Notes: a model not told the origin generated them from the letters alone. Counted from the first letter of the stretch, positions 1,195-34,100 are shown. The stretch is DNA of 64,000 nt from Euglena gracilis (GCA_039621445.1 CP154954.1:37309703-37373702), one strand, 5' to 3'. Made by a program: numbers and translations.

Positions 1195-4100
1195 GGCACA
1201 GCCCCGTGGCTGGAGGCGATCATCGGGAGGGAGAAGCAAGCACGCACAGGGTATTAAGCGCGGTTCTCGACTGTGGGAAAGAAAACAGAGGAGGAAGAAC
1301 CCCAAAATGAGAAGATGTCACGCAGCTTTATTCTCCTGCGAGGAAAAACAAAACAACTCGCTGCGCCCCGTTTTTCTTTGCAGTTCAGATTTGTTGTCGC
1401 ATTGCATTGTAAATTGCATAAATTTGTAAATTGCACTGTTCCTCCACAGGGCGAGGGGGAGGGTTCCTGAAGGGCCGTCCAGCATTCCGTTGGGGTTGAC
1501 ACTGGAGTCAGCCCCGAGGGTGGCGGCAGCGGCGGGGGAGTCGGTGGGGGAGGCGCGCCGCTGCAAGGTGAGGAGGTCCACGCTGGAGTGCAGCTCCGCC
1601 AGCGCCCGGTGGGCCTCCGCCAGGGCTCCCTCCAGCCGCCGCACCTCCTCCGCCTGCCGCAGCGCCGCCTGCCGGGGCCCGCCCCCCCTGGCAACCGACA
1701 CACACACAGACACACAGACACACACACACACACAGAGAGAGAGAGAGAGAGACACACACAGACACACACACACACAGACACACACACAGACACACACACA
1801 GACACACATACACCGACACACATACACAGACATACATACACAGACACACACACAGACACACACACAGACACACATACACAGACACACATACACAGACACA
1901 CATACACAGACACACAAACAGACACACATACACAGACACACATACACAGACACACACACAGACACACATACACAGACACACACACAGACGCACACACAGA
2001 CACACATACACAGACACACATACACAGACACACACACAGACACACACACAAGACACACACACACACACACACATGGCAATGACATAACCACAACAGCAGC
2101 AGCAGCAGCAGAAGCAGCAACAACAACACAAAAACCCATCTGCAAGTGCAGGTCCCCCGCTGCCAAAGTTGGAAGAATTCAACAAATTGAAGGCAGTGTT
2201 CAGATGCACGCCGGCTGTAATGAAGGCCGGGCAAGGGAAGGTCCCCCAATGGTCCTGCTGCACAGTTCAGGCTTTGCCGTGGTCCGTGAGAGGAAACCCC
2301 CCGCAGCATCCAGGGGAGGCGGCACGAAGCTCCGCCCCCTCCGTCCGGCCGAGGGCGACGTCGTGGGTGGCGGTGGCCAGCGCCACCCGCAGCTCCGCTG
2401 CCTCCCGTCGGACCTGCTCCAGCTGCCGCCCCTGCTCCTGGTACGCCGCCTCCGTGGAGCGCAGCTGCTGCGACAGCTGCTCCGTCGACCCCGGCCCCGG
2501 GCACCCCAAACGGCCAGGGGGCGTATGGCACATGGAGGCCAAATCACAGCACAACGCCGCAAGGAGGAACGCCAGTGTGCATTGGTGCGGCGTATTGGAC
2601 AAACAAAAGCAGAGGACGAACGCTCAGGCAATAATAATAATAATAATAATAAAGATGATGATGATGATGATAATCATCAACATCAATGATAACAACAACA
2701 ACAACAACCAACAACAATAACAATAACAACGATAATGTATGTGGCTCGCGCTGTGCCATGCCCGCGGCCGTGCAGGGAGGTCTGCAGGTCGTTGATGGTG
2801 CTGCGGGCCCGTGCCTCGGGCGGGGGCACGGGGGCCCCGGGGGCGCGGGGCTGGGCGGCGAGGTCGTCCTCCAGCAGGCGGGTCAGGCTCTCCAGCTGCT
2901 GGCGCAGCATGGCCACCAGCGCCTTCTGGGCGTTGAGCCCCGCCTGCAGGCAACGCCGCCCTGGCCTCCCCCTCAATCTGTTTGGGAGGACGAATGGGTG
3001 TTTCTTGTTGCTGGTTTGCAGACCGGTGCTCCGCGAACCCAGTTGATGGCGGTAGGCACACCATTGTGGGTGGCGGGCGGTGTGATGCTCAACAAAGCCC
3101 AGTCGGGGGGGGGGGCCAACAAATAATACGCACACACAGGCAAAAAAAAAGACAGAGACGCAACCAGTGCACGAACACAAACTACAACAGACAATAAACA
3201 ATACCGAACACGCAACACGGTGCCCGGACGCTTTCAAACCCAACGGCTATTTGCAGGAGATTTGCTCACAAGTCTGCAAGCATAACGCGGGTGAGGCGAG
3301 GGCGGCCGGGCCACTTCGGTGGTTAGCCGACGGTTCTCCTCCTCGCGCTCCTCCTCCGTCCGCTGCAGCTCCTCCGCCCGCTGCTCTGCCCGCTGCAGCC
3401 GCGACGCCTGCTCCGCCTGCCGCTGCCGCGCCTTCGCCAGCTCCAGCTCCGTCCCCGCCGCCCCAGGGCCGGGCTGGGGGGGGGGGGTCCCAGCAACCAC
3501 CCGTGCCAAGGCAGGCCAGCAGGTCGGCACGATGGGGCCCCCAAAGGTCCACAGTGACAACTGCAAGTCAGGTGCAGCCGGCCCTGGCGTGGTCTCGTGC
3601 AGGCGGTCCTCCACCCCGCGCAGGCGGCCCAGCAGCTGCTCCTTCGCCTGCAGCACGCCCGCCAGCCGCGCCGCCTCCACCGCCCGGCCCTCTGCCGCTC
3701 GCAGCTGCTCCCGCAGCGCCTTGAGCTGGCTCTGCAGCTGGCCCCAGGCCCGCCCCGCCACAGCCCAAACTGTGTATTATTTGGGGGGTCCATACCCCCC
3801 CACCCCCGGCAAGCTGCCACCAGAGAGGTTGGCCAGTAACCTGAACGGATTTCGGGTATGGAAATTTCCCGGGGGGGGGGGGGGGCTGCTTAGTTCAAAA
3901 ACCTTCTTTCGGAAGAAGACCTCCCTCCCACCGTGGATGTTTTTTTCCGGACGGGGGACGTTGCCTTATATCCGTTTCTGAGGTTCAGTGTTTCCTTTCC
4001 CCGCACCTGTTGAGCAGTTGGCATTGCCCCATAGCTTTGTTCTCATTGTGGTGGCCCCCACAGGAGGCTCCTTGGGGCCCAGGGAAGCTCCTCACGTCAT

Positions 4101-31100: not shown

Positions 31101-34100
31101 CGTCCGTGCAGAATTGTCGCGAGTCGGTGACACAAAAAACCTACAGCAATTCTGCCAAAATGAACACTGCCACGGGGAAGAGGGGCGCAGCGCGGGCCCG
31201 GCGTCTCAAAGGGGGTCATGGAGAGGCGGGGCTCCGTGCCGGCGTCGGAGGGCCGGCCCAGCGCGAAGCCGCCGCCGAGGGACTCGCGGGGCAGCGCCTC
31301 CAGCCGGGCCTCCAGCTCCGCCACCACCTGCCGGTACTGCCGCTCCCGCTCGGCCTCGCGCCGCGGCTCGGCCTTCGCACCGCACCGTGCCGTGACCCGG
31401 GGGGGGGGGGTCGGGCACCGGCCCCCGGACGTCAGCCCCGGGCAGGGGGGGGGGGGGGAGGGCAGGCCTCGGCAGTGAGCCGCGGCGTGGCCCTGCCAGT
31501 CCCTCTCGGATCGCTCGCTGGCCTCCAGCCGGCGGCGGAGGTCCGTGAGCTCCGCGCTTGGGGGCAGGGCCAGCGGGGCTGGGGACAGGGGCGGAGGGGG
31601 GGGGGGGCGGGGGCGGGGATGGCCGGGCGGGGGTGGGAGGGGGTGGGAGGTCCGGGGGGTCGCCTGGCTGGCCCTGCCCAGGGGGCCCATCGGGTCGTCC
31701 GGCACGTAGGACAGCCCGGCACGGTCCCAGGGGTCGACGGTGGTGGGGTGGGAGACCCGCCGCACATACCAGCAAATGAGGCACAAACCGGTGGCGGTTC
31801 CCCGATGGGTCGTTGGATGAGGGGAGTCGATCCAAATGGGGGGCACCAATTTCCGGGGTGTCCATCTCGTCATGCAATCGGGCAATTGTGCCGCCATTTC
31901 CTGCATTTGGGGAATCTTACAGTAAGAAGATGTCGACCAATGCAAGAGCAAACGGGCAAAAAATGATTAACTGAGTGAAATCATTCTCCATCGGCCATTG
32001 GAGAACAGTGCGAACCAATTTGAGAAGGCCCCCCTTAAGTCTCAGTCCACCCTCAAATAAAGCTGTGACAAATGGTTGCGAAATATTCTTTGCTTTGAGC
32101 TTTTTCCTATTCTTGTTCTTGCCCATTTGCAGAATCTCTATCTCGGTTCCAAAAAAACCACGCCATGTGAAACAACGGGACGATATCCGACGCCGGGGGC
32201 AGAGGATCCCCCAGCGTGCTCCGTCCGGACGGTGCGGACGTAGTGCTCCTCCGTCACCTCGATGTCGTCCCCCGCCAGCCCCGCCAGCGCCTCGTCCCGC
32301 AGCCCGGCGTGGGTCTGCAGGTGCTGCAGCAGCGCCTGGGACGTGGCCAGCTGAGGGCTGGCCCGTCCCTCCTTCCGGTCAGTTTGAGGCAGCAGAAAGC
32401 AGTGTTAGCCACCCGAGTGGAGCGGTGGTTGACACCAAACCTGAGCCGCTGCAGACAGCTGTACGGGAAGACCTGGTGGGGGTGGTCGACCCTCCCCACC
32501 CACCACAGCGCTTTCACAGATTTTTTTTTACCAAATTTCTCACGGCGCATTTGTCGCTGGGAAAAATTTTGGGGTCGAAAATTGGTGCTCCCAGAAACAC
32601 GGGAGGTGGTGGGTGGGGGAGGGTCGACCCCCAACCCACCATGCAGGGGGTGGGGGGTGGTCGACCCCCCCCACCCACCACCCTGGTTGCTTGGCCGATT
32701 CCCGGACTACCCTCTGCAGGCCAGGCCACACTGCTTACCCCGGTCACATCAGCTGCAAGCTGTCATTTTCGGGACAGTTCTTGGGACAGCTCGACGGTCA
32801 GGGAGGGGCAAATGCCGGGGAATCAGGTTTCCGCCTAAAACATTATGCCCCAGGATTCCTACCTTTGAAAAGCGTGGTTTGCGTGGAACAGCTTGGGTTG
32901 GAATAACCGTGTTGCTGTCAAAAGGCCATGTTAAAAGGCCGCCCTGAAAACTGTGTCCTCCGGCCCCTGCGGCTCAACGCACTTCGCCGCGGCTGGGGTG
33001 GGCCAGGGCGGGCGTGCAGCTGGCCCAGCTCCTCGCCCTGCGCCTGCAGCTGGGTGTAGCTGGCCTGCAGCTCGTCGCTCAGCTCCATCACCTTCGCCGT
33101 CAGCTGGTGGCAGGTCTGCGGGCGTGACCCAACGTACGGCGGGGGGCAAGTTCTTTTCCAACCAGCCACACACACATACGCACACACACACACTCTCTCT
33201 CTCTCTCTCTCTCTCTCTCTCTCTCTCTCTCTCTCTCTCTCTCTCTCTCTCTTCTGAATCGGTGTTGCTGGGGGAACTCCTTGGGGGGGAACTCCTTGCC
33301 GACCCGAGAGTGTGTGCTTGTGGGGGAAGTGTGTTGTCAGTCGGTGTGGGCGCGTGTGTTGTCAGTCTGTGTTGCGGTTTCGCCCCAGGCTGGCAGGTGG
33401 GGCATCGTCAGGGGTGACGACCCTGCCAACCCTCGTCCCCGACCGCTCTTGTCTGTGTGGTGCAGACCGTTACAAACAAGCTCTGCGTCACCCTCCCGGG
33501 GGTGGGGGAGGGGGGGTCTCTCTCTCTCTCTCTCTCTCTCTCTCTCTCTCTCTCTCTCTCTCTCTCTCTCTCTCTCTCTCTCTCTCTCTCTCTCCACTGG
33601 CCCTTTGGCTTTGGTGGAGAGCACAAATACTGTGGCTGCGGTCGTTTGCATACTTCTTTATTTTGATTGCCATAATACCCACAATGCAACCGGGAGTATT
33701 TTTTCAGGGTGTACAACTTTTTTTGGAATATGTCATCCGACCCTGGACTGGAAAATCATTACAATTGAGCTCAAGAAACATCGAGATTTTCACGCGATGC
33801 TTTTCACATTTTCTCACCCCAACTTGATTTTGTTGCTCTGTACAACGAGTCAGGATATATTTTGGGGGAGATACGCGAGGCGAGTTGGACATTGCAGGCT
33901 TCGCTTTGGAGACAAGATAACATCTGCTTTCTGTGCCTGGTCCTTGGGCCACCTCGGCCCCAGTGTCTTTCCGGCCGCCGCCGCAGGTCGGCGGGCGAGG
34001 CGTACCTCGTCCCGCATCTTGAACAGGCGGTACAGCGCCTGGAGCACGTCCTCCTGCCCCGCGGCGGTGGCGGGGGCGTGGAGGCTCTGGCAGAGCCGCT

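What the first reader, a model, noticed from the sequence alone, without database searches (positions are those of the whole stretch)
1195..31679. Gene spliced mostly by non-GT-AG, stem-closed (euglenid nonconventional) introns
Seen (minus strand): each intron below has Y|R at both junctions, pairs +4..6 with -8..-6, extends into a terminal stem and restores the frame. 1674-2325 C|GTGCCG..CGGGCCCC|G; 2487-2773 T|GCACGG..CCGGGGTC|G; 2952-3307 C|GGCCGC..GCGGCGTT|G; 3460-3588 C|GCCAGG..CCTGGGGC|G; 3740-4206 C|AGCCAG..CTGGGGCC|A; 4417-5734 C|ACCCCC..GGGGCCCC|A; 5980-6383 C|GCCCGG..CCGACCCC|G; 6531-6882 T|AACTCG..CGAAGCAC|G; 6913-7131 T|GCCTGG..CCAGCTGC|A; 31384-31476 C|ACTGCC..GGCACGGT|G; 31560-31679 T|GGGCAG..CTGCCCCC|A. 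Established: this geometry is the signature of euglenid nonconventional introns, whose excision machinery is still unknown. Inference: the paired triplet differs almost every time (CCG, CGG, CGC, AGG, CAG, CCC, TCG, TGG, GCC) while the 3-nt 5' and 5-nt 3' overhangs are constant. The splicing enzyme therefore likely measures from a stem rather than reading a sequence. One locus supplies dozens of natural variants for testing this.
Basis: partly seen in the sequence, partly recalled or inferred. Interest (0 to 1): 0.88.

Follow-up and report, generated by a model that had tools for sequence, protein, structure and literature searches.

The report
Euglenid-type nonconventional introns, RNA-confirmed
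A long coiled-coil gene in this window is spliced almost entirely by stem-closed introns that lack GT-AG ends, which is real but is a well-described feature of Euglena genomes whose sequence rules have already been worked out by mutagenesis.

Summary
All 11 listed introns have the stated geometry, and removing nine of them gives one open frame. They also define 11 more introns. Of the 14 introns between 5735 and 11871, 13 are nonconventional and 1 is GT-AG.

In the 12 with listed joints, the helix starts at +4/-6 with a 3-nt 5' and a 5-nt 3' overhang in 12 of 12. Permuted partners gave a mean of 3.2 and a maximum of 8.

The other 8 listed introns were not RNA-checked. Five fit the strict signature and three do not.

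The class is the known euglenid nonconventional intron (Milanowski 2014; Nomura 2025). The "pure ruler, no sequence read" inference is weakened here: G(+6):C(-8) is invariant in 12 of 12 and +4:-6 is Y:R in 11 of 12. Published knock-in mutagenesis also shows sequence constraints.

This is a correct finding of an already known kind, of low novelty.

The parts
5735..11871 (-). RNA-checked part of the transcript: 15 exons (191, 190, 121, 102, 95, 95, 173, 79, 86, 74, 102, 88, 30, 147 and 245 nt) encoding a 605-codon stop-free coiled-coil segment
   Evidence: Joints and contig pieces. The exon sum of 1818 nt equals the record arithmetic of X1 record 1. One open frame when spliced, against 32-41 stops per frame unspliced. 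GC is 0.765 in exons and 0.559 in introns.
5980..6383 (-).
   Evidence: Joint 5978>6383, sliding range 2, in X1, X2, X5 and X21. Only the 5980-6383 register pairs 3 of 3.
6531..6882 (-).
   Evidence: Joint 6530>6883, no sliding, in X1, X2 and X5 plus 2 raw reads.
6883..6912 (-). 30-nt micro-exon between two nonconventional introns
   Evidence: Both flanking joints have a 30-nt side in all four runs.
6913..7131 (-).
   Evidence: Joint 6912>7132, no sliding.
7220..7539 (-).
   Evidence: Joint 7218>7539, sliding range 4. One register pairs 3 of 3.
7642..8244 (-). Nonconventional intron, not listed; CAG/CTG; non-slidable
   Evidence: Joint 7641>8245, no sliding.
8319..8513 (-). Nonconventional intron, not listed; CAG/CTG; 9-bp stem
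   Evidence: Joint 8316>8512, sliding range 4.
8600..8836 (-). Nonconventional intron, not listed; TGG/CCG (U-G at +4/-6); 13-bp stem
   Evidence: Joint 8598>8836, sliding range 1.
8916..9144 (-). Nonconventional intron, not listed; CGG/CTG
   Evidence: Joint 8914>9144, sliding range 1, 6 raw reads.
9318..9716 (-). Nonconventional intron, not listed; CTG/CAG
   Evidence: Joint 9317>9717, sliding range 1.
9812..9914 (-). Nonconventional intron inferred from contig arithmetic; CGG/CCG; starts GT, ends GC
   Evidence: The neighbouring joints have 94-nt sides and a 188-nt gap in the record. One of 4 equivalent registers fits.
10010..10249 (-). Nonconventional intron, not listed; GAG/CTC, outside the published code
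   Evidence: Joint 10007>10248, sliding range 2.
10352..10581 (-). Nonconventional intron, not listed; CAG/CTG
   Evidence: Joint 10348>10579, sliding range 3, contigs only, 0 raw reads.
10703..11056 (-). Nonconventional intron, not listed; CTG/CAG; non-slidable
   Evidence: Joint 10702>11057, no sliding.
11247..11680 (-). The one conventional GT-AG intron in the checked stretch (AAG|GTGCCC...TCTTCCAG|G)
   Evidence: Adjacent contig pieces 11057-11245 and 11680-11871. A GT-AG register is available and there is no +4/-8 pairing. Sequence read.
4417..5734 (-).
   Evidence: Contig pieces end at 5734 in X1, X2 and X5. It fails the strict G+6/C-8 signature. Repeat found.
1674..2325 (-).
   Evidence: longest stem among 225 candidates; passes the strict signature.
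2487..2773 (-).
   Evidence: passes; one of 5 local alternatives.
2952..3307 (-).
   Evidence: pairs. (fails G+6/C-8; exact borders uncertain).
3460..3588 (-).
   Evidence: passes; longest local stem.
3740..4206 (-).
   Evidence: passes; longest local stem.
31384..31476 (-).
   Evidence: fails the strict signature.
31560..31679 (-).
   Evidence: passes; longest local stem.

Best explanation
The minus strand carries a long, many-exon gene for a coiled-coil protein in a euglenid-type nuclear genome. Its pre-mRNA is processed mostly through the known euglenid nonconventional-intron pathway.

Each such intron folds so that a short helix begins at intron position +4 paired with -6. Three unpaired nucleotides are left at the 5' end and five at the 3' end. 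The cuts fall at those fixed distances, in front of a purine that begins the next exon. Recognition combines structure (helix plus spacer lengths) with sequence: at this locus G at +6 pairs with C at -8 in every case, and +4:-6 is usually C/U paired with G/A.

One intron in the checked stretch is an ordinary GT-AG spliceosomal intron, so both systems act on the same transcript.

Shown here: the junctions, the geometry, the frame, and the mix of intron types.
Taken from the literature: the motif and spacers are necessary and sufficient in knock-in tests, and the excised introns are circular.
Inferred: the catalyst is a spliceosome-independent endonuclease plus ligase that uses the helix base as its reference point.
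For:: transcript contigs from three studies and raw RNA reads skip the introns. Intron-only bins have zero depth in X1 and X2.

A 13th junction is GT-AG.

a 14th intron, 9812-9914, fits.

12 of 12 at spacers 3/5 and 12 of 12 one step inward, but only 3 of 12 one step outward. All 4 non-slidable joints fit. Permuted partners gave a mean of 3.2 and a maximum of 8.

+6 is G in 12 of 12, -8 is C in 12 of 12, the first base of the next exon is a purine in 12 of 12, and the third base of the next exon is C in 9 of 12, as in Milanowski's model.

a 605-codon open frame when spliced, against 32-41 stops per frame unspliced. The exon sum matches the contig length arithmetic.

each intron's own ends pair better than mismatched ends (-27.2 versus -21.8 kcal/mol; 14 of 20000 permutations reach the observed mean).

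Literature: Nomura 2025 Results and Discussion; Gao 2024 section 10; Milanowski 2014 passages; review passages on circles and order of removal.
Against: Only 3 of the 11 listed introns are fully RNA-checked, plus one donor. Three of the unchecked ones (2952-3307, 4417-5734, 31384-31476) lack the G+6/C-8 pair seen in every checked intron.

For slidable joints I chose the register by the pairing rule, so the base counts at fixed positions are partly conditioned on that rule. The 4 non-slidable joints are free of this problem.

Raw-read support per joint is thin: 0-6 reads. X1, X2 and X5 are labelled RNA only by guess. Sixteen of the 31 joints reported were not shown, so minor alternative junctions cannot be excluded.

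Duplex energy alone discriminates poorly for single introns: for 4 of 12, at least half of the mismatched partners are as stable.

The organism is coded, so euglenid origin is inferred. The enzyme is not identified by anything here.
Confidence: 0.92

Rival explanations
1. The machinery is a pure structural ruler: it needs any stem and counts 3 and 5 nucleotides outward, without reading base identity.
For: The middle pair varies freely: +5 is G, C, A or T. Four of the 12 RNA-defined introns (TCG/CGA, TGG/CCA, TGG/CCG, GAG/CTC) fall outside the published CDG/CH'G code. Two of those are non-slidable, so their register is certain. Nomura 2025 reports that 38.8% of nonconventional introns lack the code.
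Against: +6 is G and -8 is C in 12 of 12, and +4:-6 is Y:R in 11 of 12. Knock-in tests show that single changes in CAG or CTG abolish splicing. Among second-position compensatory swaps only CTG-CAG worked, and a purine is needed at the start of the next exon.
Confidence: 0.15
2. These introns are removed by a spliceosome, either modified or the standard one, with the terminal helix only bringing the ends together.
For: A conventional and many nonconventional introns sit in one transcript. The review leaves open an additional nonconventional spliceosome. Diplonemids with similar introns keep a full U2-type snRNP set (abstract and passages).
Against: The 12 listed-joint introns have no GT-AG. 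The literature reports no U1 complementarity or polypyrimidine tract, and full-length circles rather than lariats. Spacer lengths are strict.
Confidence: 0.2
3. The joints are artefacts: reverse-transcriptase template switching or assembler jumps across hairpins and short direct repeats.
For: Eight of the 12 joints are flanked by 1-4 nt direct repeats, and all have terminal hairpins. Both features favour template switching.
Against: Four joints have no repeat at all. The same joints appear in three contig sets and in raw reads. Removing the segments restores a 605-codon frame from sequence that otherwise has 32-41 stops per frame. The skipped parts have a different composition and carry microsatellites. 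Genome-edited knock-ins in the literature show real splicing with a phenotype.
Confidence: 0.02
4. Some of the 8 unchecked reader introns have different true borders, or are not introns at all. For example, 31384-31476 is 93 nt and lies in frame.
For: Three fail the strict signature. The in-silico signature is highly degenerate. The frame 30983-31966 stays open through both 31-kb candidates.
Against: All 3 checkable reader borders were exact. Five of the 8 pass a signature that only 1-9 of 801 local alternatives pass. The putative intron segments near 31 kb are C-rich and low in complexity, unlike the flanking coiled-coil code.
Confidence: 0.35

Closest known systems
Euglenid nonconventional (NC) introns: structural model of Milanowski et al. 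2014 (PMC3935182) and splicing code of Nomura et al. 2025 (PMC12501133)
   Same: Non-GT-AG borders. A helix from +4..6 to -8..-6. A 3-nt 5' spacer and a 5-nt 3' spacer. A purine at the start of the next exon and often a C at its third base. A pyrimidine at the intron's last base. Short direct repeats that make junctions slidable. Coexistence with GT-AG introns in one gene. NC introns are the majority: 13 of 14 here, against 71.8% genome-wide in E. agilis.
   Different: Nothing categorical. Four of the 12 RNA-defined introns use triplets outside CDG/CH'G, which is in line with the published 38.8% that lie outside the code. A Y at the last exon base, part of the 2014 model, holds in only 6 of 12 here, which agrees with Nomura's finding of no donor-side requirement.
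E. gracilis genome-wide intron census of Gao et al. 2024 (PMC11170887)
   Same: A CCAGG-like 5' consensus at +3..+7, CCTG at -9..-6, terminal pairing in nonconventional but not GT-AG introns, and tandem repeats inside introns.
   Different: That study reports statistics over thousands of introns. This finding is one gene with 14 checked introns.
Noncanonical introns of hemistasiid diplonemids (PMC12621601)
   Same: Most introns lack GT-AG, and the intron ends can pair extensively.
   Different: The passages I read do not describe a fixed N3/N5 geometry with CAG/CTG. The geometry here is the euglenid one.
Archaeal and eukaryotic tRNA-type splicing (bulge-helix-bulge endonuclease plus ligase). 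This comparison is recalled, not tested.
   Same: Cut sites set by distance from a helix rather than by a long consensus. The intron is released as a circle.
   Different: No bulge-helix-bulge motif: the position matrix shows no exon-exon or exon-intron pairing outside the helix. Milanowski 2014 notes that no ortholog of the relevant endonuclease was found in E. gracilis ESTs (passage).

Membership tests
Euglenid nonconventional introns | Borders are not GT/GC-AG | tested here: met
   None of the 12 RNA-defined joints has a GT-AG register. The 13th, 9812-9914, is GT..GC.
Euglenid nonconventional introns | Base pairing of +4..+6 with -8..-6 that brings the intron ends together | tested here: met
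   12 of 12, against a permuted-partner mean of 3.2 and maximum of 8. All 4 non-slidable joints fit. All 11 reader introns fit.
Euglenid nonconventional introns | Fixed spacers: 3 nt at the 5' end and 5-6 nt at the 3' end | tested here: met
   In the offset map the helix starts at (3,5) in 12 of 12. One step outward, at (2,4), only 3 of 12 pair.
Euglenid nonconventional introns | Purine at the first base of the downstream exon | tested here: met
   12 of 12 RNA-defined introns and 8 of 8 unchecked reader introns.
Euglenid nonconventional introns | Helix continues beyond the triplet | tested here: met
   +7:-9 is paired in 12 of 12 and +8:-10 in 10 of 12.
Nomura 2025 code N3-CDG...CH'G-N5-6|R | C at +4, a non-C base at +5, G at +6, and the complementary C-H'-G at -8..-6 | tested here: inconclusive
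   Eight of the 12 RNA-defined introns fit. Four do not: TCG/CGA, TGG/CCA, TGG/CCG and GAG/CTC. The paper itself finds the code in 61.2% of NC introns.
Euglenid nonconventional introns | Pyrimidine|purine at both junctions (2014 model) | tested here: inconclusive
   The 3' junction is Y|R in 11 of 12. At the 5' junction the first intron base is R in 12 of 12, but the last exon base is Y in only 6 of 12.
Euglenid nonconventional introns | Excised as a full-length circular RNA, after the conventional introns are removed | not tested
   Known only from the literature. The one read-laying run reported no back-joined form among the 15 joints it showed.
Euglenid nonconventional introns | The host is a euglenid | not testable with these tools
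   The organism is coded as 'organism A'. Rfam found no marker RNA in the window. Origin is inferred from the intron geometry.
Conventional spliceosomal intron (11247-11680) | GT-AG ends with a pyrimidine tract and no terminal helix | tested here: met
   AAG|GT...TCTTCCAG|G. Pairing at +4/-8 is 0 of 3. Own-end duplex energy is -15.0 kcal/mol, against a mean of -27.2 for the NC introns.

The most novel reading that the evidence does not exclude
RNA-supported natural introns at this locus have U:A, U:G or G:C at +4/-6, and one has C at +5. Two of them are non-slidable, so their register is certain. This shows that the machinery accepts more than the genetically defined CDG/CH'G code. The only things invariant here are the two spacer lengths, the G(+6):C(-8) pair and the exon purine. 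If that held genome-wide, the true determinant would be one G:C pair at a fixed depth in a helix whose base sets the cut sites. That rule is simpler and different from the published one.
Probability: 0.3. Interest if true: 0.4.

Novelty: already known. Interest (0 to 1): 0.2.

Why it matters
Nonconventional introns are a real oddity of eukaryotic gene expression, and the enzyme that removes them is still unknown. However, their geometry, their genome-wide abundance and their cis-requirements have been published. That work includes point mutants, spacer mutants and fully synthetic introns. This locus therefore adds examples, not a new phenomenon.

Its modest value is as a compact, RNA-verified panel of 13 natural variants in one transcript. 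Four of them lie outside the published code and could be placed directly into the existing knock-in assay.

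Tried and rejected
1. The look-up of sequencing runs: no RNA holder listed among the indexed runs. 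X1-X19 are RNA only by guess. I laid three of the 19 (X1, X2, X5) plus the raw RNA run X21.

2. The search for homologous proteins with exon peptide P0001, longer proteins: no hit at E<=1e-5. I therefore could not verify junctions from transcript-derived proteins, and did not spend the other two searches.

3. Pfam on 10 exon peptides: only three sub-threshold coiled-coil matches (CC2-LZ, CALCOCO1, DUF7610). The protein family stays unknown.

4. Rfam at gathering threshold on the whole window: 0 matches.

5. In-silico gene model from codon-score seeds plus signature. The output was mostly cut. There were 59-427 candidates per exon pair, and the longest stem equalled the RNA junction in only 2 of the 12 listed-joint nonconventional introns. 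I rejected this as a way to define the remaining roughly 30 introns.

6. Constrained solution for the three exons between 11872 and 13101, using the 246-nt record gap: 2169 distinct solutions. Left unresolved.

7. Three joints listed (9197>11737, 9768>11091, 9988>10257) were dropped before counting. Each has only a 21-nt side, and 9197>11737 also has foreign letters listed between its sides in table 5c, as expected from contigs of paralogous coiled-coil transcripts.

8. The search of earlier findings: nothing on this genome or on these words.

9. Test for exon-exon or bulge-helix-bulge-like pairing: no diagonal outside the intron helix.

10. Intron-versus-window BLAST for intron families: one nested inverted-repeat element only. 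It gives no evidence that these introns are copies of each other.

Full report
**What is there**

The window is GC-rich eukaryotic DNA. On the minus strand, a codon-score scan finds about 47 short segments rich in A, E, L, R and Q, in varying frames, from about 38.9 kb down to about 1.0 kb. They are separated by lower-GC sequence that includes very long microsatellites: (TG)568 at 4433-5552 and a 12-14-nt AC-rich array at 1698-2073. This looks like one long, many-exon coiled-coil gene, or possibly more than one. Pfam gives only sub-threshold coiled-coil matches for 10 exon peptides, so the protein family is unknown.

**Check of the observation**

- All 11 have Y|R at both junctions, and their stems run 1-10 bp further inward.
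- Removing the nine introns between 1674 and 7131 yields a single stop-free frame.

**Independent evidence from RNA**

A search for sequencing runs listed 19 contig runs that hold about a quarter of the sampled words of 5735-7232. The exons make up about a third of that stretch (523 of 1498 nt), so this fits exon-only transcripts. One run holds 0.66 and is probably DNA. It used contig runs X1, X2 and X5 from three studies and one raw RNA-seq run, X21.

- Joints 6530>6883 and 6912>7132 have no sliding ambiguity and match 6531-6882 and 6913-7131 exactly.
- The 30-nt exon 6883-6912 is real.
- Raw-read support is thin, at 0-6 reads per joint, but the joints agree across all three contig sets.

Nine further clean joints were listed, and a tenth follows from adjacent contig pieces (11245>11680). 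An eleventh, 9812-9914, follows from 94-nt joint sides and record arithmetic.

The resulting 15 exons sum to 1818 nt. This is exactly the length required by the coordinates of the 6786-nt contig X1 record 1. They read as one 605-codon open frame, whereas the unspliced sequence has 32-41 stops in every frame. Exon GC is 0.765 and intron GC is 0.559.

Three listed joints, each with only a 21-nt side, were dropped as paralogue joins; one of them also has foreign letters listed between its sides. Sixteen of the 31 joints that one search reported were not shown.

**Geometry on RNA-defined junctions**

None allows GT-AG.
- The 11247-11680 junction is a plain GT-AG intron with a TCTTCCAG acceptor and no terminal pairing.
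- An offset map shows the helix starting sharply: 12 of 12 at spacers (3,5), 12 of 12 at (4,6), 10 of 12 at (5,7), but only 3 of 12 at (2,4).
- All 4 non-slidable joints fit.
- With 3' ends permuted among introns, the count averages 3.2 and never exceeds 8 in 5000 trials.
- Duplex energies of the first and last 30 nt favour true partners (-27.2 against -21.8 kcal/mol; 14 of 20000 permutations). For single introns the separation is poor, because all the ends are GC-rich and share motifs.

So 13 of the 14 introns in the checked stretch are nonconventional. "Spliced mostly by non-GT-AG introns" is correct.

**How much the signature can do alone**

Very little. With frame, pairing and the exon purine as the only filters, each exon pair has 59-427 candidate introns. 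The longest stem picks the RNA junction in only 2 of the 12 listed-joint nonconventional introns. The three exons between 11872 and 13101 have 2169 solutions even with their total length fixed.

A stricter signature was taken from the checked set: G at +6, C at -8, four pairs, and the exon purine. It is passed by 1-9 of 801 local in-frame alternatives. Three do not: 2952-3307, 4417-5734 and 31384-31476.

For 4417-5734 the donor is nevertheless supported to within 1 nt, because contig pieces end at 5734 in all three contig runs. 31384-31476 is the weakest of the 11. It has a 4-bp stem, is 93 nt long, and lies in a frame that stays open through it.

**What is read: structure or sequence?**

In the 12 checked introns:

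| Position | Count |
|---|---|
| +6 is G | 12 of 12 |
| -8 is C | 12 of 12 |
| +4 | C 8, U 3, G 1 |
| -6 | G 9, A 2, C 1 |
| +5:-7 pair | varies freely |
| First intron base is a purine | 12 of 12 |
| Last intron base is a pyrimidine | 11 of 12 |
| First base of next exon is a purine | 12 of 12 |
| Third base of next exon is C | 9 of 12 |
| Last base of upstream exon is a pyrimidine | 6 of 12 |

There is no pairing diagonal outside the helix, so the structure is not a bulge-helix-bulge motif.

**Comparison with what is known**

- The 2014 model from 74 introns already states the CA/TG core at +4,+5/-7,-6, Y|R at both junctions, and a C at the third base of the next exon (PMC3935182, passages).
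- A 2024 review gives CAG/CTG at +4-6/-8--6, TSD-like repeats, removal after the conventional introns, and full-length circular products (PMC11282704, passages).
- Gao et al. 2024 catalogued 28,337 E. gracilis introns with the same terminal motifs (PMC11170887, abstract and section 10).
- Nomura et al. 2025 found 71.8% nonconventional introns in E. agilis and a similar share in E. gracilis. Using knock-ins, they showed the following (PMC12501133, Results and Discussion):
  - Single changes in CAG or CTG abolish splicing.
  - The 5' spacer must be 3 nt, and the 3' spacer tolerates 5-6 nt.
  - The next exon must start with a purine.
  - The helix beyond the motif is needed.
  - Fully synthetic introns built to these rules splice.
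  - The code N3-CDG/CH'G-N5-6|R covers 61.2% of nonconventional introns.

Here 8 of 12 fit that code. The four that do not are TCG/CGA, TGG/CCA, TGG/CCG and GAG/CTC, and they belong to the published remainder. The trans-acting machinery is still described as unknown. A search from 2025 onward listed six papers, and none of their titles or abstract starts concerns the machinery; I did not open four of them. I could not open supplements, and Nomura's datasets may already list these very introns.

**Verdict**

- The class assignment is correct.
- The "measures from a stem rather than reading a sequence" inference is half right. The ruler part agrees with the published spacer experiments and with the data here. 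The "no sequence" part is contradicted by the invariant G:C pair here and by the published mutagenesis.
- The proposed experiment has already been done.
- The finding is an accurate recognition of an already known kind of system.

Its small residual interest is a set of RNA-verified off-code variants in a single transcript.

Noticed in passing
window 6108-6354 (inside intron 5980-6383); partial copy at 24042-24093: A roughly 247-bp element with 28-bp inverted terminal arms (93% identical) is nested in a nonconventional intron. In run X5 the RNA contig depth over 6097-6368 is about 1555, against 20-30 on the neighbouring exons, with 7-11 variant contigs. It is therefore a multi-copy, MITE-like family that is present in RNA. 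This is relevant to the published idea that these introns derive from MITEs.
   Followed up: partly
window 11537-11808, especially about 11560-11609 inside the GT-AG intron 11247-11680: Contig depth is very high (5066 in X5, 457 in X1), with T>C at 11589 in up to 33 contigs. Many raw reads run off into unrelated sequence on both sides. This is a short segment shared with many other transcripts, and its identity is unknown.
   Followed up: no
window 4433-5552, 1698-2073 and 13690-13870: Very long microsatellites sit inside introns: (TG)568, an AC-rich 12-14-nt array of about 29 copies, and (AT)91. Intronic tandem repeats are a reported feature of E. gracilis (Gao 2024).
   Followed up: no
window 323-589: A 43-bp tandem repeat, 6.2 copies, 94% matches. 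Its unit is itself partly palindromic. It lies downstream of the gene's last recognisable coding segment.
   Followed up: no
window 7747-8045 (inside intron 7642-8244): One low-depth X5 contig (302 nt, depth 2.9, with several differences and indels) lies wholly within an intron. It could be unspliced precursor, an excised intron, or a related copy elsewhere.
   Followed up: no
The gene may extend beyond 31679, or a second similar gene may lie there.
   Followed up: no
No border could be fixed without RNA.
   Followed up: partly
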